Below, one piece after another: positions 1-54,980 of a DNA stretch of 64,000 nt (its first letter is position 1; each line of letters starts with the position of its first letter). A program made the position numbers and the translations under genes. This DNA comes from Eledone cirrhosa. Lineage: Eukaryota. Location: positions 136,276,001 through 136,340,000 of the forward strand of contig OZ024740.1 in NCBI GenBank assembly GCA_964016885.1, read 5' to 3'. The notes beneath the pieces were generated by a model, which was not told where the DNA came from, did no database searches, and worked only from the letters and a program-made list of their open reading frames with translations.

Positions 1-267
1 CGCTCGGCTAAGCATTTCACTTTAGATATTAAAGGGTCCAGGGGGACAGTTACAATAGACAGGCTTAAGCAGGCACACCTTGACACGGACGCTGTGGTTC
101 CTGATCCACGAACCCCTTCGTATTTGCCTGTTGAGCGAACGCCTGTTCCTGAACCACCATCATCGCCTGTCCCTACACCACCACCATCGCCACGTTACAA
201 GACCACGACCCGTTCAAATCGTAGGGTCCACTGGCCCAAAATATTTTGCAGCACCGTCTATATTTAG
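1..267 (+). pseudogene. Gypsy LTR-retrotransposon pol, integrase C-terminal tail (5' part outside window)
   Basis: Frame 1 reads RSAKHFTLDIKGSRGTVTIDRLKQAH...TRSNRRVHWPK...*, resembling the Gypsy integrase C-terminal pattern K.F.....G....VSIDRLKPA...TRSGR.V..P. Confidence 0.75.
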
Positions 268-480
268 ACTGTGTTAGCTGCACCGTTTTTTTTGCTTCTG
301 TGTTTCTGCTTTTTCTTTGCCTTTTTTTTATGCATGCATGTTGTGTTTTTTTTTTTAACATTTTTCAAATCCTTATTCTGGATTCAACGATTGGTAGAGC
401 GAATAGTTCTCCCTTGTTGCATTGTTCGCCATCTTACTCCACGTGTGAGTAATAACATCGATTTTCGATGATTTGAAAAT

Positions 481-5749: not shown

Positions 5750-8194
5750 TATTTATTAAAATAACAGATTAAAGTTTAAGCAAAGAATCGCTGCTTTGAC
5801 CCTTAACGGGATCTTCTGAAACTAAAAAAATCAATCTGTGAACGCAGAAGTAAATATTTCAAAAAACGTTGCAACCGAAGGAAGACAGGAAGACGATACT
5901 TTGGTTCGTGGAAACTTTCCAAAACACAAAGTACACATATACACACACCCTATATACGTACGAACCCGCATACTCGCGTATACACATAACCATATGCACA
6001 TGTACCAGTATATATAAAATATACGCCATAACATATACAAGCAAATATACGTACGAGAAAGTATACATACCTTCACAAAACATACAGATAATATATACTT
6101 ACTATACAAATAAGTAATGGTATAAACATAACATATACTTAGCTACCACATCAAGACGTAAAATATCCGCGTATAGTTCGTACTATGCATTAGGGTATAA
6201 TGTGGGGTTGTAATACAGGAAAGTTTTGTGCAATTTATGTTTACAAGCCGAAATTGCCTCAAATTTTTTTGTTTAAGATGTGGTCTTTGGCGTAGAATAT
6301 TTCCAGGGACTCAGCGGCGCAGAGGTCACATGGTCTTTTATTTCCGTTATACGATCTAGCCCTAGCTAGGATCTCCCAGTGTAACTTATATTGGGTGTGG
6401 TTGTCTTTTAGACTCCAGATATAAGTTGAAAATGACGTCATATTCCTTCTTAAAGAGTTAAGAAAAGAATGGGTATGCATGTAAAGACGCTGCTTAAATC
6501 TATTGGCGGTTAGCCCTATGTAGGCCCTATGGGACGTGGGTGTTTCAACCTTACATTTGTAGACAATGTTACTAGAGAGACATTTCCCGGATAGGGGGCA
6601 GTCAACCCGATTCCTACAATTACAGTTATTACTAGCTACAGGGTTGCACGTGTTCTGACGGCTAGGTAATTTAGCTAAATTTGAAGCTGTGATGTTATGT
6701 GTAAGGTTAGGAGTCGTAGAGTAAGACATTTTAATGGTATTTCTATTAAAATTTTTACTATGTTTATGTGCTAGGGGGAAATGCTTCATAATAAGGGAGA
6801 GAAAGATCTTAGCTAATGGTGTGGCCACCTCCATATTATATGGTGGGTTATACCATGTAATGTGCCGGGATCTATTTTTCCTAGGTCTATTCTCGTACTC
6901 TGTATAAGCTACCTTATCGACAAATCCACTCCGAGCAAGAGCTTCATTGTAATATGTGGAATGGTCGGTGAAAATATCCTCGTTTGTAGATAGACGGGAG
7001 AGCCTCAAAGAAACGTTTCTTACCAGGTTCTTGGTTATGATGGCAGGATGGTTAGAATGCTTACTTATGTAATTAAGCGTATCATTCGGCTTTCTATACG
7101 GGTAATACAACCCATTCAATAAATTGAAGGTAACGTCGAGGAAATTAACGATCGAGAGATTGACCTCAACCTGTATGGAGAGGTTGAAGCCTTTAAAGAA
7201 GGCTGTGAGTTCTTTTCTGAACCTGTCGCAAGCACGTGAACCGCACTTTGTCATGGTCAAAAGACTGTCATCACGGTACAAACCACCACCCACGTTGGGG
7301 AATTCTTCCTTGATAGAGAAAAGAAGGAAAAGGCCGATAAGATCAGTAACCTCCGCAGAATCGCTGGCGCCCATACTCACGTCGAATGGGGTACTATTAG
7401 ATATTTTAATCCAAATAGAGTCGTCGAAATTAATCACCGACTTACGGGCATTGAGGATGACATCAACTTCGAAATCCTTAACCACTGTGAGTGTTTTAGC
7501 GAAATTGATAGCTCTAAGAAGGAGTGGTAAAGTGATGGCGGAGTAGTAATTATTGATGTCGAATTGGATAAAACGGCAATGTTCCTTGTTGCATATGCCG
7601 TTGAACCAATCAATCACCGCGAAAGAATTGCTCTACAGTGCAAGAGGGGCCAAACTCCTAATTTCGGGTATAATTCTATCTAAAATCCTTTTACTAAGTC
7701 TACCTAAATCGGACTTCGTAGGGTTAATAAGCCGAATAGAGGGGTTGTTCTGGAAATTGGATTTGTGATCCTTCAGGGTATAATGGGGAGAAATTGGGTC
7801 CAGAGGTTCAGTCCAGTCCAAGATGTTGAGATCAGAGGTGATTTTAAACCCGGCATCGTTGATTTCATTAATGACGCTCCGATTAGATTTACGGTAATCC
7901 TTAGTTACAGCATTATGTAACAGTTAGTAGTAAGTAATGCGCTCCACTTGATATAGATTGCCAGTTTTGTCGGAGTGGACGTGCACGGGATTAGAATCCT
8001 TAATAGAACGAATTCTATTCTTCAGGTCCTGTTGTAAGGAATTGCTCCTATTCCGAAATTTGATACACCGTATGAGTTCCAAGACATCATTTTCGAAGGG
8101 TAGCAATGCTGGTTTACTCGGAGGGTTATTATAGGTTTTAAACCCAAATTTATCCTGTTTGTTGTCTGGTTTTCCCTGATTATCAAAATAAAAG

Positions 8195-10230: not shown

Positions 10231-11720
10231 CAAGAAAGAAAAGTGACATGGTTTGCTATACATTAAGGGCTTTATTCACATTGGTGACAATTGTTTCTCT
10301 GAACTCGTATGTCTAGAGTTCGCTACCCGCCTGTTTTTGCGTCAATCGATCACCAATACTTTGTTATAACCAGTTCTGATTTAATGTCACTACTATATAT
10401 AGAAGCCATGCCTGTGTATTCCCTCCATTCTCGCACGCTCTGATGAACTGACTGGTTATAACAAAGTATTGGTGATCGATTGACGCAAAAACAGGCGGGT
10501 AGTGATCTCTAAACCTACCAGTTCAGAGAAACAATTGTCAGCAATGTGAATAAAGCCCTTAATGTCACTCTTCTTTCTTGATTTATTATTACCCCAAGTG
10601 TAAGCTACACAGAAATCACCGCGTACTCGCATCATCACTATGGAAACGTCTTGTTGAGTCAAACTTATCCAAGCGTTAATACGATCCACTACTCGGAGTA
10701 CCCTAACTGGACTACATCTAAGTGGACTACCTATAACAATAATTTGTTATCCCGTATACATAGCTCCCACTAGGTTGAGCAACATAATTAACGCACGGCA
10801 ACAACATGGAAAAGCAGCGCATAGGAATGTCACTGAAAAACATACCTATACCTACAAATAAGGACTATACACTAGGCATGATACAATGGACTAATGATTT
10901 CATCCGTAGGGTCCGATGGATGGCTTACCACTTCGACAAAGGACCAGCTATTAACAAAAGAGAACTTTCTAAGGAGAATTACGGATTCGAATCCTGCAAA
11001 AACCCTCCAAACAATCCCGCGCTCGATGCCTTTGAGCTGGACCTTATGAATATGATAAGTGGAACTAAATTCAAAAAAAGAACACACCACAGCAAATTAC
11101 AAAATGACATCAATACACTACTAAGAAAACTAAAAGACACCAACGGTATCACAGTAAAGGCAGACAAAACATCAAACGTATATTCTATGGACCTTAACAC
11201 ATACAATAATTTCATTCAGTGTGAACTACACAAAAAATACAAAAAAAAAACAAATTAATCCACACTCACCAGCATTAACAAGGAGGGCCTTAGGATAGTA
11301 AATAAACTCGGAATATCCGATAGAACCGAGCCTCTAACCCCATGAAACCCCACATTTAACCTTAAGGATCACAAAAATAATTTTGAAGTAAATCCTACTA
11401 TCAGATTAATATGCCCATCTAAGACGGATATAGGTAAAATTAGCAAGAATATTCTAGATAGGGTAATCGCACAAATAAAGAGAAAACTAGAAATCAATTT
11501 ATGGGGTAACACTAACGAGGCGATTGAATGGTTCAGTAAAATAAGAAATAGAGAAGCATGCGACTTCATACAATTCGATATAAACGATTACTACGCGTCC
11601 ATATCCCCAGCCACCCTAGATAAAGCGCTTATATTTGCCCCAAATAACTCCGATCTTACTCCTGATGAAATAAATTGAAATAATACTAGCTGCGAGGACT
11701 ATCATAAAATTCGAAGGAGG
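10230..11720 (+). mobile_element. Naiad-type PLE 5' part (inverted partial pLTR, pLTR, ORF start), interrupted by a Tx1 LINE
   Basis: ORF at 10806 MEKQRIGMSLKNIPIP...KADKT, continuing with frameshifts through LKDHK.NF..NPTIRLI.PSKTDIG...FIQFDI..YY; 10230-10375 is an inverted copy of 10452-10586. Confidence 0.88.
10437..10542 (+). ncRNA. Hammerhead ribozyme with ~60-nt stem-II insertion, family C
   Basis: GCT CTGATGA aCTGACTGGT-(60 nt)-ACCAGtTCAGa GAAA CAATTG TC AGC. Confidence 0.75.
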
Positions 11721-11838
11721 AAAGGGGAAGATAAACTTACAGCTTCCTCCTGCCACTGTCACAGTAGCAGAGGTCTAAAAGAAAGGTCAGCCAGAGGAAG
11801 GATTTTCTCCACCTGTTGACCGACAACTTGACGTTGCC

Positions 11839-41309: not shown

Positions 41310-42854
41310 TTTATATGACCAAATATTAATATGGTTCGTTGATTACTCAATGAATACAATTTTACAATAGATTAAAGGCACTCAACAGAAAAGTTCTCCT
41401 GGAGTTTTTAATATTATTCAAAATATTAACAAATTAAAGATATTCACATAATCAAAATATATGCTTTATTATATATATTTCAAAGGTACTGTGTTTTTTT
41501 TTTCAGTACGTCCTCATCAGATAAAATATATGATTTGATATATGACATACCGCTACGGTCTTGATTATACAATTCCAGTATTGGCAGTGATTTATTTCAT
41601 CAAATCTCAATGTTCATATACCACAAATAATATGATAAACAAGGCAAATAAATACATACATAAATAAATAAATGAATAAAAAAATAATAAATAAAAGGAT
41701 GAATGAGTGAAAGAAATATATAAAAAAGAAAAGAGGAATAACGACAAAAGAGGGAAGGTGTGGGGAAAGTAAAAAGAACAGAGGGGGGTAAAGAAAAATA
41801 AAGAAAAATAAAGGAACATCAAATAGAGAGGGATAGAGAAAAAAACCGTTGTTTTTAAATGCTAGATCAAATAGGACATCCAATCAATTCACATAAACAA
41901 TTGAATATCTTTAGTATTTGATTATGCATTAGCTAATTATACTTATATATTATATCAAAATTAATCGGTATACATTATTTTCTATAGAAATCACTTATAT
42001 AGTTTAATTAAAAATTTATATAATTTAATTTGCCTCATTATAGATTTTTATTTTTAATTTTAAGGTAAGATATTCTATAAATGTTTAGTTATAACTTTAA
42101 AAGAATTATCTTTAAAACGTATTTAAATAATTATTAAATATGTATTAAAATCTAATTGCATTCTTAACACTTTTAGGATGATTAGAATAAAAACTAACAT
42201 AATTTAAGTTCTCATTGAGTTTATGGAAAGGATAATAAAGGCCAGAGTTCAAATTAAGAGTCTCATCTAAAAAATTAACTATTTTATTATTATTTTCTAC
42301 TTCTAATTTCAGGTCGTAATTTAAAAAAAAATTCTATAATTACTTTCTTTACACTATTTAATTCGCTATTAATATGTTTTTCTACAATAAATAGTATGTC
42401 GTCTCTATATAAACCACCGGTAATCTCCGGCAGTTTTCTATTTATCATGTTAAGGATAAAAATTCCCACAAGATCCGTAACTTGCGCCGAATCAGACGAA
42501 CCCATAGTAATGTCAAAATTCTTCTCTCTATTCGATCTAGTCCAAAGATCATTATTAAAATCAATCAAAGTTCGCCTTGCTGTTAATATAATATTTATCT
42601 CATCACTAGATAGGTCCGTATGTTTATATGCATATGATAGCGCCTTATTTAATAGATTAGGAGTTATTGAAGAATAATAACTCGCTATATCCATTTGAAT
42701 GGACTTATAATTATTTTTATTTTTGATATTATTGAACCAATCTATGACTTCACTAGTGCCTTTCCATAGATTTAGCCATGACCTCAATTTAAGTGTTGGT
42801 AAAATCCTATCTATTATATTTTTACTAATTATACCAAGATCTGATATTATTTTG

Positions 42855-42860
<6 letters not shown>
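41310..42860 (-). mobile_element. Decayed AT-rich Naiad-type PLE (RT fragment, 3'UTR, pLTR)
   Basis: SDLGIISK..VIDWF..MDIASYY..MGSSDSAQ..LYRDD..VNFLD..SNHP. Confidence 0.82.
41464..41526 (-). ncRNA. Hammerhead ribozyme
   Basis: TTTTAT CTGATGA GGAc GTACTG-(A-rich loop)-CAGTAC cTTT GAAA TATATA TA ATAAAG. Confidence 0.75.
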
Positions 42861-42905
<45 letters not shown>

Positions 42906-43599: not shown

Positions 43600-43949
43600 T
43601 AAGTTAAAACAATGAAATAAAAAATCAAGTCATTAGAGATATACTTCACTGCTTTACGATCGTTTCTAGATGGTGATAATACATTGTATCTATACTCAGT
43701 TATTGATCTATGTAAGTTTACAAACTATGAGATAGAGAGAATATTTACTTACATGCATATCACCAACTGTTTTCAAAACAGCTGGTGATATGCATGTAAG
43801 TAAATATTCTTTCTATTTGATAGTTTGTAAACTTACATAGATCAATAACTGAGTATAGATACAATGTATTATCACCATCTAGAAACGATCGTAGAGCAGT
43901 GAAGTATATCTCTAATGACTTGATTTTTTTATTTCATTGTTTTAACTTT
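43600..43949. repeat. ~350-bp palindrome (centre 43774) carrying two HHR 3' halves
   Basis: Arms are reverse complements with a few mismatches; each has TGGTGATA..TATCACCA tcta GAAA CGATCG TA. Confidence 0.9.
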
Positions 43950-44610
<661 letters not shown>

Positions 44611-44612
<2 letters not shown>

Positions 44613-45365
44613 TAAGGAATTTATATCTAGTAACATTTATATACACACAGATGCATATCAATGCTAGCAAATATATAGGTTTTGTCTTATTAACAATGTG
44701 GTTCAATGCATGGGGTTGCAGAACAATAATATGAGAAACGTAAAATAAGAAAATTATAAAATTAACTTACTTACTAAAAAATCACTTCCAACTAATTAGT
44801 TTCTGGAATGGAGTAAATATATTTTCCGAAGAAACTTATAGAAAATCATTCCGTCATCAGGAAAGTCTTTTTCCGTATAGGTCTCCAGGCATAGCGAGGA
44901 CACTGGAAACTTATTAAAAAAATAATTCAGTGGAATGGAAATAGCGATGCGTGGACTGGATTCCAAGCCATTGAGAAAATCACTGCCTCCACGTCCGTGG
45001 CAAATTCAAAAAGAATCAATCACGTGACATCGAGGTCAATCAGTGGAAAGCGAGTGGTTATTAAGACAGCGGCCAGCTTACTACCATAGTAGCAGTCATG
45101 GCCAAATATTGCTCGACAAATGAATTGGAGATAATTATAAGGAATTTATATCTAGTAACATTTATATACACACAGATGCATATCAATGCTAGAAAATATA
45201 TAGGTTTTGTCTTATTAACAATGTGGTTCAATGCATGGGGTTGCAGAACAATAATATGAGAGACGTAAAATAAGAAAATTATAAAATTAACTTACTTACT
45301 AAAAAATCACTTCCAACTCCGTCTCTCATATTATTGTTCTGCAACCCCATGCATTGAACCACATT
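44611..45365 (-). mobile_element. Retrozyme/mini-PLE-like cassette: 525-bp monomer, 183-bp terminal redundancy, 46-bp 5' inversion
   Basis: 44611-44793 repeats at 45136-45318; 45320-45365 is the reverse complement of 45220-45265. Confidence 0.8.
44784..44866 (-). ncRNA. Hammerhead ribozyme with branched stem II
   Basis: ACTTTC CTGATGA cGGAATG-(ATTTTC..GAAAAT hairpin)-CATTCCa GAAA CTAATTAG TT GGAAGT. Confidence 0.78.
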
Positions 45366-48300
45366 TTTTCTAGGGCGGGTAAAATTCCCGAGATCCATGG
45401 ACGAGTTCTCTCCAGCGGTCTCTGTCCCTCATTATCGCTGCCATATCCTGCATCTCCAACAGACCAGTGTCTGTCCTTAGGGCATCAACATATGTTAACC
45501 TTGGTCTTCCTCTTCTAGTGTGTCCATGTAGGGGCTCCCAAAGGAGCACTGAGTGCAATGTCAACTCTGGATGTCGGTGAGCATGTCCAGCCAACCTCAG
45601 TCTCCTCTGTGTCACTTTTGAGCTGACTTTTGGGATGCTCCCATACAGCTCTGAGTTTTTCATCCTCAGTGTATACTGATTAATGTTCAGAGCCATCCTC
45701 AGCATTCTCGTGTAGCACCCATCCACCATCTGAGTGAGTCTCTTGGTCAGTGTCCAAGTCTCAGACCCACACAGCAGCACAGACTCCACTACAGCAATGA
45801 AGAGGCGGATTTTCAGGTCTCTATAAAAGGTCCGACTTCCACACCGATCTCAAGCTGTGACACGCCGCCCAGGCCTTGCTCTTCCTCCCAACCACATCAT
45901 CTTCCGTATTCCCAATCTTTGCTCCCAAATACAGGAAGTCCTCAACCAATTCCAGCGGCTTCCCGCCTACATTAGTGATCCCCTCTGGCTTCTCAACATT
46001 CTCCACCAGATATTTTGTTTTAGTCTCATTCATTCTCAGCCCCACACTCATCGACACAGTCTCAACCTCCCGCATCAAATCCTCTGCCTCCTTCACTGTA
46101 TTTGTCACCAAAACTATGTCGTCGGCAAATTCAGCATCCGATACCTTTTTCGCCCCAACTCTCCTGCTCTGAGCCGGTGCTACAGTAAATCCAGTGTCCT
46201 GGTATTTCTCCAGTGCAAGGCGCATACAATAGTCCACTACGATGATAAAAAGGTAGGGAGCCAATGTATCTCCCTGGAGCACTCCAGCCAGTATCTCAAA
46301 GAACTCTGTCATCCCATCAGGTGTAATGACTTGGGCTTTGGTGTTGGTGTAGAGCAGTGATATCAGGTCCACTATCCTCTTGGGGATTCCATAAGCCTGT
46401 AAGATCTTCATCAGGCAGTAACGGTCCACAGAATCAAAGGCCTTCCTAAAGTCAATGAAAACCATGACCGCAGGAAGGCACTTTGCTCTAGCTCCCTCTA
46501 ATATCCTCCTCAGCATCAGGATGTGACTGGTGGTTGATCTACCCTCTCTGAAGCCGTTCTGGTTGTCCCTGAGCTTCTTCTCCATCTCAGGCTGGATCCT
46601 GTTAAGAATCATCCTGTTGAGGGTCTTTGCCACAAGTGACGTCAGTGAGATCCCCCGGTAGTTGTTGGTGTTAGAGAGATCTCCCTTCTTTGGCACTGGG
46701 ACGATGTTACTGATCCTCCACTGATTCGGGGCAACTCCTTTCTCCAGTGCCCCGTTACAGAACCCCAGGATGATATCATCAAAATCACACCTCTTCATCA
46801 CCTCTGATGCCACTCTATCCTCTCCATGAGCCTTGCCCTCCTTGATCTTCTTCTTGGCTCTCTGAAGCTCCTCTCTGGTGAAGGGCTCTGTCTCAACATC
46901 CAGTTCCTCAAACAGCCGCCTGATCTCCCCACTGCTCTGGGCTGTGGAGGGTGGCTCTCCTAGTAGGGTCCTAAAATGGTCTAGCCATTTCCTCTTCCTA
47001 TCCTCGGGCCCCGTTCCCTGGATCTGACTCGAACACCTTTTCTTCCTCCCTGTGATCTCGTTGATGATCATCCAGCTATCCTTACATCCAGATCTGTCAA
47101 CCGCTCTATCCACACTTCTGATCTTCTCTATCAGTGCCTCCTCTCTGACCTCAGTGTAAGCGGTACAGAGCTCTTCCCTCATCACCTCCACAGTCTCCAT
47201 CCTCTCCTCCGTAGGATCAGCATAGAATTGGTCCCTGGCAGCTTTCAGGTGTTCTCTGGCTGCACACACTTTTGGGTTTGCAGAGCTGACGTGCTTCCCT
47301 TTGTTCTTTTTCCTCGGCACCAGGGTTTCACTTGCTTTCGCCACTGCATTGGTGAAGTGCCCGTACCTCCTCGTCACACTCTCCTCAGTCCATCCAATCT
47401 CTCTCTCCTCTGACTCTCCACACAGAGCACTAAACCTGTTTCTCACTTCCACTGTGAACCTCTCCTGTAGCTTATCATCTTCCTTGAAAGCTCCCCAGTC
47501 ATAGATTGTTCTCCGGGGCTGAGCCTTGCTCTTTCTTAAGCTCACGCGGACCTCACTCATAACAAGCCGGTGGTCACTACCCAGTGTACTGAAATAGCTG
47601 TATGGTTCCGTGTTCAGAACACTATTCCGCCACTTTTTCCTCACCAGAATGAAATCAATCTGGGACTTGGACAGGTGCATATCTGAGATGTAGGTCCACA
47701 TCTTCCCCAGATTCTTCCTAAACCTTAGGTTGGTTGCCATCAAGTTCGCCTCCAGCAGGGTGTCTCTCAGTAGTCTTCCATTTCGGTTGGTGTTGTTATG
47801 GAAGTACCAGCAAGGATCTTCACTGCCCTCCTTACTCAGATGTGCACTGAAGTCCCCCAAAACAAGCAGGATATTGTGTGCCTGAGTGGTGTTGACAGCC
47901 CCACACACCTCCTCATGGAACTCCTCGGCATTCACATCACTGTCCCCCTCGGTTGGACTATAGGCTGAGATGACTGTCAGTCTTGGGTTTCCATTGAAGG
48001 TCACCCTCAACACTCGCGGGGAGATAGGCATTATTTCCCTCACCAACAGATTGGTTTTTGCACTGAACACAAAACCCACTCCTCCTACTGCAGCATTTGT
48101 TGTGTTCTTCACTGCCGATGTAGTGATGAGCTGGCTCTTCCTCCCGATCATCACACTCCTCACGGGCTCATCGTGTAGAATCCTGTGTTCTTGGATCGCA
48201 AGTATCTGTATACCACTCTCCTCGAACAGATGTCCCAACTCCTCTCTCTTCTCCAGCGTTCGAATAGTCCTCACATTCAAAGTGCCCATTTTGATGGCTC

Positions 48301-48680
48301 TTCTGCAGGACAAAACTGCATTCTTTATATTTGTCTCAGAGACAGCTGATCCATAATCCACTGGCCCTCTCTGTGGCTCTAAGCCAGCAGAGTCATAACG
48401 ACCAGGCTGCTCCTTGACAGTGTAATTAGGGGCTCTAACCCTAGTGCTGTTAGATCGACTCTCCATATTTCTTTTCAATGGCTGACAATACCTTACCGGC
48501 GCCACTCGAATAAGGTAGTTATTTAACCCATAAATGGAGCCCTAACAGGTACTACCACCCCGGGCCAGGGCAGACCTGGGAGTCATGACAACTAAGGGGT
48601 AACTCCACATTCCCCACATCTCCTGAACTCCCGAACTGGAGCCTTGCCACTGGATGTAGTTTAATGTCATACCCAGGACA
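45366..48680 (-). mobile_element. Full-length RTE-clade LINE with Ceph-domain-like 5'UTR
   Basis: Single APE-RT ORF; 5'UTR has gggtatgacattaaactacatcc...actcccaggtctgccctggcccggggtggtagtacctgttagggctccatttatgggttaaata. Confidence 0.93.
45370..48466 (-). pseudogene. RTE APE-RT polyprotein with a single +1 frameshift near 45825
   Basis: LNVRT, IQEHR, GDF, QIDF, SDH, NYRGISL, DFRKAFD, GVLQGD, FADD, FLYLG, RRLRLAGH, RGRPR. Confidence 0.92.
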
Positions 48681-49921: not shown

Positions 49922-50288
49922 TAGAATTGGTCTCTGAAATAGCGATATATATATGAATCTATATATAGTGTATTTTGCAATACACTCTATGCTTAATTAA
50001 AAGAATTTCGAAGACCTTACGCTATTGCTTTAGAGTAGTGACAGTCTCCCTTACTTTAATTTTCAGCAAACAGGGGAGATAAAGCTGACAGAGCTCTGTT
50101 TCGCACTTTTTGGTGCTTATCAAAGCTAAGTACTCCGCCTGTTTGCTGAAAATCATGAATGTTTGGTTCTTATAGAATTCTAGTAATAATCAGGAACTGA
50201 TTATACAGAGCGGTTGCCGGTCAAGCAGAACATTAGAATTGGTGCTCTGAAATGCCGATATATATATGAATCAGTTCCTGATTATTAC
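49922..50288 (-). mobile_element. Retrozyme-like cassette: ~312-bp monomer, ~38-bp terminal direct repeats, 20-bp inversion
   Basis: tagaattgg..ctctgaaat..cgatatatatatgaatc at 49922 and 50234; 50269-50288 is the reverse complement of 50183-50202. Confidence 0.7.
50059..50153 (-). ncRNA. Hammerhead ribozyme with compensatory U3-A8 core and long extended stem I
   Basis: ATTTTCAGCAAACAGG cGGAG tactt AGCT TTGATAA GCAC caaaaa GTGC GAAA CAGAGCTCTG TC AGCT ttat CTCC CCTGTTTGCTGAAAAT. Confidence 0.85.
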
Positions 50289-52110: not shown

Positions 52111-54980
52111 AAATAGAGTAGATAATAACAATGAGCCAGAGGAAAGAGACAAAAGTAATAATGAGAGACATAGAAACAACCATGAAATAGAAACAACACA
52201 ACTAACAATAACAATAGCAATAGTACACATAAAGCAGCAGCATGGAATTCTACTTTTTATAAGCCTTCCGATATGTCCTTCGACGAGTCCACGCCACGAC
52301 TTTAGCTTTTAACAAACGCACGCAATTGCCATCGCAGGTCGATGAAAAAACAGAAGCACAATTAAGTATAGCTAGATCTAAACTTAGAAATATTATAGAA
52401 CAGTATAGCAAGAAGCAAAATAGAATGGAGGCCCAGCAACTGGGAGAAAAATCTCAAAATGGCTTGCGTAAGATCATGCATGCTTTCCAACAGACAAGTC
52501 TGGCAGAAAGTCGGTTGACAGTCTGTCAAACTACATCCAGCCAATACAACCCCCACATCACTAACACAAAAGAAGTAACACCACAAGAGCATGAGGATAG
52601 GGAGAAAACCCCCAATGCCCATATGATGATGTGGACAAACATAATGCAGCCCAATAAAAGGACTGCCAACAACTTCCAGGCCTGGAACAATGACGTGCCA
52701 GTATTGTATGGGCTTCGAAAAGACCATAAGACGAACAGTGACCCAGTCACAGGACCACCAACACAGCCAGTCTGTGGAGCTAACATTGCTAGTAACTACA
52801 GACTTTCCTACTTCCTTTCCCTGATCATACGCCCCATCATTGAAATGTCCCCCGATATATGTGACAGCACGGAGGACCTCCTCAGCCGAATCAGCGAAAA
52901 TAACCGATTTACGGACCTAACAGACTGTATAATAGGTAGTATGGGTGTTGTGTCCCTATATCAATCCATTGACGTGAATTTTGCTGTGGAGAAATGCGTA
53001 GAAATGATCAGTGAGAGCAATGTTGAATTCCGTGGGATTGATACCAGTGAGCTGGGACTGCTACTTAAACTTACCTATAGTAATGATCATCTAGATACGT
53101 ATGACCTTAGCAACCTGTGCCCTACAAGACTAGTAAGAGGCAGACCACCTACCATTACCTCAATGGCCAAGAAAACCCACACAGAAAGATGGAACGGGTG
53201 GACCAGAGCCATACGGGCCCCCGAAAACCACGATTAACTAAAGAAAATGTTTGCACATGCGGTTGGGGGGGGGGGGGCAGTATAAAACTAACCCTTAAGG
53301 AACATATGTTCAAATTTAATGGAAAAACATATGCCCAAGAGGAGGGAGCAGCCATTGGTGTTAGCATTGCAGGTGACATAGCTAACCTATTCATGGTATG
53401 GTGGGACAATAAACTTAAACTTAAAGAACAATTAGAAGACAGCAACCTCTTAACCCTGATAATGTACTCCCGCTACGTTGATGATATAAACATCGTAGTA
53501 AAAACACCTCACTAGAGAACAGTCAGGAATTAGAGAAAAACACCATGGAAAGCATCCAGCAAATAGCAAACTCCATCCACCAGAGTATTAGAGTTACTAT
53601 AGACTACCCAAGCAAATACCCCAACCATCGATTACCTGTACTAGACACAGAGCTTTGGTTAGAAACCATTAATAACAAAAAACAAATCCTCCATTCCCAT
53701 TATGCCAAACCCATGACTTCCAAATATCTGATCCACCGAAACTCAGCTGTTTCGGATCACACCAAAATCAACATACTGATTGCGGATTTGGTACGGGTGA
53801 TGAGAAACGTGTCCCGCGTGTGCAACCCCAAAGAACTAGAGAGACACATACAACACTTCATCCACCGTATGCAGTTCTCTGGTTACAATCAGAGATAAAA
53901 TCAGAGTATATAGAGGTGCCAGAACCAAATGGGAAAAAATGATAAATAATGATACAAATGGGACCTGCCCCTTGTATAGGAGCAAATTTTGGAATAGAAT
54001 AGAAAGAACTAGGAATAAGGTTAATAGAATAAACTCATGGTATGATAGCAATAAATACCAGAGTGTAATGTTCATCAATACAACCCCTAGAGGTGAATTA
54101 GCTTACAAATTTAGAAGGGCCCTAGATAAACTTAAACTTAATATTAAGATTGTAGAAAGACCAGGTACCTCCATAAAAACACTTAGTAATACATACCCTT
54201 TTCAAAGACCTCCCTGTATAGATAAGAAATACATAATCTGTAAACTAAGCCCCCATATTAACTGTAAAACTAGAAACATAGTATATAGCAAAAGATGTAC
54301 TGAAGGATAATGTAAAGATAAGAATATAGTGTACATAGGTGAGACAGCTCACAGTATAGGAGAACGATTAAATGAACACTGGCGAGAGCTTCAAGATAAA
54401 AAAGAATCATCAACACTCCACCAACATGCTAAAATAGAACATATGGGCAAATTAGAGAACATAGAAATAAAAATAGAATTTACACACAGAAAAGACGCAA
54501 TGTTTAGACAAATCACAGAGGCAATAAACATAAATGAACTCCAACCAAAATTAAATAGAAAACATGAATGGAATAGCAACATCACAACTTACAATTAAGG
54601 ACAAAATGAAAACACACACACACAGAACAAACAACCAATCAGTAACATGTAAATAAACAAATAAATAAATAAACAAATAAAAACACAGACACCCAGATGT
54701 AACATGCGCAAACTAAGCACAACGCACACAAAAACAAGATGGCGTGGAACAGAACAAAGGAAAGGCACAAAACAAAGAAAAGAATCCCAGTCACTGAAGA
54801 GGTCTCAGAATGTGTGACGAAAGAACTTTGACAATATATGAACAACCGTCCGGTTGTGGAACCAACCGGAAATTTATAAATTCTTAAATTTATAAATTTA
54901 ATTTATAATAAGTTGGAGTGAAAGCAACTGGTGCGTGTGTTTCTTATTGGAAACATGACCCTCCCAAAGTATAACAATAT
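52110..54980 (+). mobile_element. Penelope-like element family D (RT, Cys linker, GIY-YIG, 3' pLTR), decayed
   Basis: LYGLRKDHK, STEDLL, SLY.SI, QEEGAAIG, RYVDD, LPVLD, NC..RNIVY...YIGET..R..EH; ends in gaccctcccaaagtataacaat. Confidence 0.9.
54790..54832 (+). ncRNA. Minimal hammerhead ribozyme, family D
   Basis: GTCA CTGAAGA gGTCtCagaatgtGTGAC GAAA GAAC TT TGAC. Confidence 0.75.

What the first reader, a model, noticed from the sequence alone, without database searches (positions are those of the whole stretch)
44611..45365. 525-nt cassette whose 5' end lies within 4 nt of its own predicted hammerhead cut site
Seen on the minus strand: a 183-bp terminal redundancy. The upstream copy starts AGTT|GGAAGT, 4 nt before the position equivalent to the predicted cut at 44790/44789, and is preceded by a 46-bp inversion copied from that same repeat. 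Inference: a genomic footprint of ribozyme-defined RNA ends, with reverse transcription stopping or switching template at the cleavage/ligation junction.
Basis: partly seen in the sequence, partly recalled or inferred. Interest (0 to 1): 0.75.

Follow-up and report, generated by a model that had tools for sequence, protein, structure and literature searches.

The report
Penelope-type retrozyme, cut barely marks ends
This is one of at least a thousand copies of a 525-base non-coding repeat with a predicted self-cutting RNA motif, likely pasted into TA repeats by a Penelope-type enzyme; its start 4 bases from the predicted cut is what chance gives, although about 1.8 times more copies than expected begin in the 25 bases just after the cut.

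Summary
It is one insertion of a non-coding retrozyme / non-autonomous Penelope-like family (over 1,000 copies), usually two head-to-head arms that end at fixed unit positions +61 and +179 in (TA)n. This copy begins upstream of the scissile bond, so its template was uncut or re-ligated there. The inversion belongs to a recurrent short-arm class unrelated to the cut. What survives: ends at +1..+25 are enriched (46 against 28.4, hazard ratio 1.8; two pre-registered tests p=0.046 and 0.002), but inconsistently between arm types, and a second hot spot of like size lies at +126..150. A minority of cut linear templates is possible, not shown. The scan has noted this architecture before in other families of this genome.

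The parts
44611..45318 (-). Main arm, 708 nt: one 525-nt unit plus 183 nt; runs from unit -4 to the fixed 3' end +179
   Evidence: L002/L041
45136..45318 (-). Upstream copy of the 183-nt redundancy (pseudo-LTR-like); lacks the hammerhead core, holds only AGTT|GGAAGT
44611..44793 (-). Downstream copy of the redundancy; holds the two fixed family ends, +61 (44729) and +179 (44611)
44784..44866 (-). Predicted type I hammerhead: 6-bp helix I, 6-bp helix II closed by a C.A mismatch, 36-nt loop II, palindromic helix III, GUU triplet, cut 44790/44789
44790..44801 (.). 12-nt perfect palindrome forming helix III; can pair with a second copy (duplex -10.8 kcal/mol) and offers microhomology for head-to-head joints
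   Evidence: joint of L267
45319..45319 (-). Single untemplated G between the two arms
45320..45365 (+). Short inverted arm, unit +50..+95, one of six short arms with outer ends at +80..+105 and a non-TA flank
45366..48678 (-). Apparently full-length LINE with endonuclease and reverse transcriptase (RTE-like by my recall, clade not tested), broken into frames of 906 and 159 aa; its natural 3' end (stop plus A-run) abuts the short arm
43949..44610 (.). (TA)n-rich target tract into which the +179 end runs

Best explanation
This is a 5'-truncated insertion of a non-coding 525-nt hammerhead repeat that a Penelope-type reverse transcriptase/endonuclease likely copied into a TA tract from an RNA whose hammerhead junction was intact, and its start 4 nt before the predicted cut is most likely an ordinary truncation point. 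Shown: two fixed 3' ends (+61, +179) in (TA)n, head-to-head arms joined mostly through microhomology, scattered 5' ends, read-through of the cut position. Inferred: both sides of a break in (TA)n prime cDNA at the two fixed sites; the template is an uncut multimer or a re-ligated circle; the two cDNAs stop at variable places and join by their 3' ends. Inferred and weak: about 4 in 100 passages end because the RNA itself begins at the cut, with up to 25 nt lost in joining. The short inverted arm here is likely the second cDNA, started at +95 instead of +61 because the left end of the break was the LINE's A-run, which can pair with UU there.
For: 224 + 673 exact copies end at +179 and 1,082 at +61, each followed by TA repeats; reversed-pattern controls 0. 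139 of 199 arms ending at +179 have an inverted partner and 127 of those 139 partners end at +57..+65. 89 of 127 joints overlap by at least 1 nt, 12 are blunt, 26 have filler. Length-adjusted model on 406 arms, window copy left out: -4..-1 4 against 4.2; -4..+4 11 against 8.5; -25..-1 25 against 25.4; 378 of 428 passages read through; 56 of 325 arms cross two cut positions. The two arms of one insertion differ at 1.2% of sites against 2.7% between insertions. Two internal start sites, AT-rich targets and uncut RNA as the dominant substrate are shown in vitro for Poseidon_Ac (PMC11167929). Hydra-type Penelope elements with 808-codon open frames are in this genome.
Against: Ends at +1..+25 are enriched (46 against 28.4; hazard ratio 1.79, 95% CI 1.29-2.47; family-wise p 0.021 over all 25-nt windows), so truncation is not wholly independent of the cut region and this copy (second passage, -4) lies at the edge of that zone. 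The mobilising element was not identified: the one Hydra family examined shares no sequence with the unit (30 loci). The 118-nt distance between the two ends is far above the 30-40 nt tail described for Penelope elements (PMC8557442). The account of the short arm is inference only.
Confidence: 0.78

Rival explanations
1. One reading: reverse transcription stops or switches template at the cleavage/ligation junction, and this made both the -4 start and the inversion.
For: +1..+25 excess in three samples: 13 against 5.9 (post hoc), 11 against 6.1 (pre-registered, p=0.046), and +25..-4 15 against 6.3 (pre-registered, p=0.002). Both arms end in -5..+25 in 6 of 154 insertions against 2.0 (post hoc, p=0.006); L184 has both arms starting at the cut.
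Against: No excess at or 5' of the cut, where this copy ends (4 against 4.2). Two of three pre-registered windows failed in the second sample (-4..+4: 2 against 1.8; -15..+25: 13 against 9.4). The excess is in +179 arms in samples 1-2 (partner arms 10 against 10.6) but in +61 arms in sample 3 (+179 arms 1 against 1.6). Short inversions occur with main-arm ends anywhere.
Confidence: 0.12
2. The +1..+25 excess is a sequence effect, not a ribozyme effect: a U-rich, partly self-complementary stretch weakens the RNA:cDNA hybrid and offers microhomology to the partner arm or to (TA)n.
For: A second hot spot of like size at +126..150 (40 against 26.6, hazard ratio 1.71) has no ribozyme site; same-phase joints are enriched all round the unit (16 against 6.2 within 10 nt, five of them at +142..149).
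Against: The other U-tracts show no excess (+382..410: 21 against 18.3; +290..318: 11 against 14.6); AT content and excess do not correlate (rho 0.33, p 0.14); the more AT-rich bin +26..50 is at expectation (25 against 25.3).
Confidence: 0.4
3. A capped transcription start near the cut sets these 5' ends; the window's untemplated G would be a copied cap before an initiator-like TTAGTT (motif recalled).
For: One untemplated G directly before AGTT; an earlier scan note proposed capped starts for other families (e1-9550100, not checked by me).
Against: G before the boundary in 3 of 23 informative ends at -5..+25 against 32 of 200 elsewhere; no other end at -4.
Confidence: 0.08
4. The short inverted arm is the stump of a normal +61-type arm (about 537 nt) whose outer part was lost when the LINE inserted into it by target-primed reverse transcription.
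For: The joint is at the LINE's natural 3' end and the arm ends in TT that can prime on an A-tail.
Against: No rest of the arm beyond the LINE's 5' end; five other short arms with the same span abut other DNA, and 5 of 6 have inner ends at +44..+57, which later damage would not give.
Confidence: 0.25

Closest known systems
Metazoan non-LTR retrozymes (Cervera and de la Pena 2020, PMC7229834; Li, Clavereau and Pollet, bioRxiv 10.64898/2026.07.22.740005)
   Same: Non-coding, low-GC tandem unit with a type I hammerhead; predicted compact fold as a circle (z -5.4 against 30 shuffles); link to Penelope-like elements proposed there.
   Different: Unit 505-527 nt against 170-400 nt RNAs; mostly dispersed two-armed insertions rather than long arrays; expression, cleavage and circles untested here.
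EN+ Penelope-like elements, Hydra clade nearest by target (Craig et al. 2021, PMC8557442)
   Same: Partial tandem giving a pseudo-LTR, inverted 5'-truncated partner, tail on one side, (TA)n target, hammerhead.
   Different: No ORF; tail 118 nt against 30-40; no sequence match to the one Hydra family tested.
Poseidon_Ac (Frangieh et al. 2024, PMC11167929)
   Same: Two fixed internal start points 3' of the hammerhead, AT-rich target, read-through of the cut site; they found no RNA-seq reads ending at the cut.
   Different: [quoted passage not shown] Here a weak genomic excess of 5' ends just 3' of the cut.
Minimal hammerheads of PLE pseudo-LTRs (Cervera and de la Pena 2014, PMC4209133)
   Same: Long helix II, extra nucleotide after A9, G-C first pair, palindromic helix III that needs a dimer.
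   Different: An additional A before G12 (C.A in 333 of 342 motifs) and a GUU triplet (338 of 342); activity unknown.

Membership tests
Metazoan non-LTR retrozyme | No protein coding | tested here: met
   Only short stop-to-stop frames (at most 76 aa) within the unit
Metazoan non-LTR retrozyme | Type I hammerhead in each unit | tested here: met
   Core conserved; helix II pairs G-C/A-U/C-G 254/79/4 and U-A/G-C 288/43 in 342 motifs, copies not independent; 42 of 42 cells paired in 7 sequences
Metazoan non-LTR retrozyme | Tandem units with at least two hammerheads | tested here: met
   59 cut-to-cut units in the loci scanned; arms of about 2.5 kb. The window's own copy has only one full hammerhead
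Metazoan non-LTR retrozyme | Unit of about 150-450 nt | tested here: not met
   505-527 nt; so filed as retrozyme-like, larger than the published range
Metazoan non-LTR retrozyme | Self-cleavage; linear and circular monomer RNAs | not testable with these tools
   No RNA run listed
EN+ Penelope-like element | RT plus GIY-YIG ORF | tested here: not met
   None in the unit: at most a non-autonomous passenger
EN+ Penelope-like element | Partial tandem plus inverted 5'-truncated copy | tested here: met
   139 of 199 arms have an inverted partner
EN+ Penelope-like element | Two fixed 3' ends (tail on one side) | tested here: met
   451 of about 487 distinct arms end at +57..65 or +170..183; spacing 118 nt, longer than described
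EN+ Penelope-like element | Microsatellite target | tested here: met
   420 of those 451 ends run into TA repeats; most were found by TA-containing patterns, but the TA-blind search gave the same picture
Non-autonomous partner of Hydra | Terminal sequence shared with a coding Hydra element | tested here: inconclusive
   No match in 30 loci of one family; same hammerhead build at window 10440; other families not examined

The most novel reading that the evidence does not exclude
The genome holds a faint record of hammerhead cleavage in living cells: about 4 in 100 passages of the reverse transcriptase end because the template RNA begins at the cut, leaving a one-sided smear of 5' ends at +1..+21 and stub palindromes such as L184 whose two arms both start at the cut, while the other passages copy uncut or circular RNA.
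Probability: 0.4. Interest if true: 0.55.

Novelty: new member of a known kind. Interest (0 to 1): 0.33.

Why it matters
Whether the hammerheads of Penelope-like elements and animal retrozymes cut the RNA that is actually reverse-transcribed is open: the one in vitro study found uncut RNA to be the main substrate and no RNA ends at the cut (PMC11167929). This family gives a number from the genome: at least 88% of passages read through the cut and at most a few percent may stop because of it. That backs uncut or circular templates and makes a precise, cheap prediction for RNA-end mapping. The single copy is ordinary.

Tried and rejected
Rfam scan: no hammerhead hit at this place; a miRNA model hits the inversion hairpin below threshold. 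First histogram loci discarded: chosen for a full 341-nt match, which biases 5' ends. 'Excess only at the second passage of the cut' (12 of 46 against 13 of 162) was post hoc and faded with a local baseline (first passage 13 against 6.9) and in new +179 arms (0 of 14). Cap-G test negative. Circle against linear multimer: private variants shared by tandem passes 4 in 51 arms, by both arms 10 in 8 of 52 insertions: same lineage, no discrimination. Penelope ORFs abutting short arms in L201 and L026-028 are two different families and show no shared ends with the unit; not accepted as the mobiliser. Genome search with the LINE's 3' end returned nothing, not even itself: uninformative. No RNA holder listed; the three runs laid are contigs of one sample. 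Unconstrained folding of the 101-nt motif gives helices I and II but z -0.27. Look-up of earlier notes by sequence gave nothing. Paper searches listed no study that maps genomic 5' ends against the hammerhead cut; the library lacks most subscription journals, and I read no supplements (the Hydra hammerheads are in supplementary file S2 of PMC8557442).

Full report
Observation. On the minus strand 45318-45136 repeats at 44793-44611 (183 nt, 2 mismatches, spacing 525). A type I hammerhead lies at 44866-44784 with the cut after GUU at 44790/44789. The upstream repeat starts 4 nt before the cut-equivalent, then come one untemplated G (45319), a 46-nt inverted piece of the unit (+50..+95, counting +1 as the first base after the cut) and the A-run of a LINE. 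Rfam does not find the motif, but among 342 motifs in fetched loci helix II shows double changes (G-C 254, A-U 79, C-G 4; U-A 288, G-C 43), with an almost invariant C.A mismatch next to the core and GUU in 338 (copies are related, so these are about three events). In 7 sequences 42 of 42 cells pair and slid controls do not. Helix III is a 12-nt palindrome, as in the dimer-dependent hammerheads of Penelope pseudo-LTRs (PMC4209133, parts 1-2 of 4 read).

The family. The unit is non-coding and abundant: 224 and 673 exact matches end at +179 and 1,082 at +61, each running into TA repeats. Of 199 arms ending at +179, 139 have a head-to-head inverted partner and 127 of these end at +57..+65. Joints are mostly microhomologies (89 of 127; 12 blunt; 26 with filler). 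The two arms of an insertion are closer to each other (1.2%) than to other insertions (2.7%). This is the Penelope insertion pattern: partial tandem, inverted truncated copy, a tail on one side, microsatellite target (PMC8557442, passages and section 11 read), with two internal start sites as shown in vitro for Poseidon_Ac (PMC11167929, parts 1-2 of 4 read). The 183-nt 'terminal redundancy' is simply what an arm of 708 nt looks like on a 525-nt period.

Copies were sampled by their 3' end or an internal anchor, never by the 5' end. Sample 1: the first 100 listed of 224. Sample 2: the first 100 listed of 673 older copies, 99 after one duplicate, 2 censored at the locus edge; windows were fixed beforehand. 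Sample 3: 130 loci with an internal anchor gave 126 distinct arms, 35 already counted, 91 new, 87 analysed after dropping two fragments, one arm running off the locus and one array already counted; statistic fixed beforehand. Within 4 nt of the cut: 3 against 1.8 (with the window's copy), 2 against 1.8, 4 against 1.5. At +1..+25: 13 against 5.9 (post hoc), 11 against 6.1 (p=0.046); the third pre-registered window of sample 2 (-15..+25) failed, 13 against 9.4. Sample 3, +25..-4: 15 against 6.3 (p=0.002), but from +61 arms (12 against 4.7) and not +179 arms (1 against 1.6), the reverse of samples 1-2, where partner arms gave 10 against 10.6. A pooled model with length-dependent baseline (406 arms: 198 + 127 + 81, after six further sample-3 arms were left out as a duplicate, for atypical 3' ends or for ending at the anchor; window copy left out) gives -4..-1 4 against 4.2; -4..+4 11 against 8.5; +1..+25 46 against 28.4 (hazard ratio 1.79, CI 1.29-2.47); -25..-1 25 against 25.4; family-wise p 0.021; and a second hot spot at +126..150, 40 against 26.6. 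378 of 428 passages run through the cut zone and 56 of 325 arms cross two cuts.

Reading. A reverse transcriptase that runs off a cleaved RNA would end at +1 or 3' of it. This copy holds four bases 5' of the scissile bond, so its template was intact there, and ends at -4..-1 are at chance frequency. The dominant template is uncut multimer or re-ligated circle; my data do not tell these apart. The one-sided excess 3' of the cut, about 18 ends, fits a minority of cut linear templates trimmed on joining; both arms end at -5..+25 in 6 of 154 insertions against 2.0 (post hoc), and L184 starts both arms at the cut. But local sequence could do the same: same-phase joints are enriched elsewhere too. 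Other U-tracts show no excess and there is no cap-G signature (3 of 23 against 32 of 200).

The inversion. It is not tied to the cut. Six independent insertions have a short inverted arm with the outer end at +80..+105 and a non-TA flank, five with the inner end at +44..+57; their main arms start at -140, -71, -4, +5, +62 and +70. Here the flank is the natural 3' end of a very abundant LINE whose other end lies in TA/TATG repeats. My preferred, untested account: the break fell between the LINE's A-run and (TA)n, and the A-ended side primed at UU near +95 instead of AUAU at +61. A later LINE insertion with deletion is the rival.

Mobiliser. The window holds Hydra-type Penelope remains (RWM and DKT motifs, hammerhead at 10440 with the same mismatch, long helix II and palindromic helix III), and the genome has relatives with 808-codon open frames. 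That family shares no sequence with the unit, so the partner is unidentified.

Comparison and verdict. It works like a metazoan non-LTR retrozyme moved by Penelope machinery (PMC7229834, passages read; bioRxiv 10.64898/2026.07.22.740005, part 1 of 5 and passages read), with a larger unit and a longer tail. Circular templates for more-than-unit copies were proposed in 2014 (PMC4209133). Earlier scan notes describe the same two-armed pattern in other families of this genome; I used them as leads only. The copy is ordinary; the population carries a modest, testable signal. Interest 0.33.

Noticed in passing
window 50482 (+) and 37061 (-): Two further type I hammerhead motifs of other families; the first has a palindromic helix III and lies upstream of a broken Penelope-type RT frame at about 52263-54307 (+).
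   Followed up: partly
window 10251-11800 (+): Hydra-type Penelope element with an inverted 5' piece, hammerhead at 10440 and a broken ORF from 10788; relatives with 808-codon frames exist, and in L401/L403 the core reads CCGAAGA instead of CUGAUGA.
   Followed up: partly
window 6262-7632 (-) and 42293-42904 (-): Further Hydra-like RT fragments of other families.
   Followed up: no
window 50065-50140 (-): Weak Rfam HH9 hammerhead hit (26.5 bits against a threshold of 52).
   Followed up: no
L184: Stub palindrome whose two arms (61 and 178 nt) both begin at the predicted cut; the cleanest single example of a cut-defined end.
   Followed up: partly
L201, L026-L028, L117, L137, L253: Short inverted arms (+44..57 to +80..105) joined to other elements: two different Penelope ORFs in the same sense, a mariner-like stretch, unknown DNA. 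The fixed span is unexplained.
   Followed up: partly
unit +126..+150 (window 45189-45165): Second hot spot of 5' ends, often with both arms ending at +142..149.
   Followed up: partly
L033: A related family about 69% identical with a longer unit, its own compensatory helix II pair and the same +61 end.
   Followed up: no
Strand-skewed counts (263 against 114; 316 against 236) of the internal anchor hint at one or more long arrays of the unit somewhere in the assembly.
   Followed up: no
window 43675-43865: About 90-bp inverted repeat (hairpin) inside the AT-rich tract; a near-identical sequence flanks an arm end in L144.
   Followed up: no
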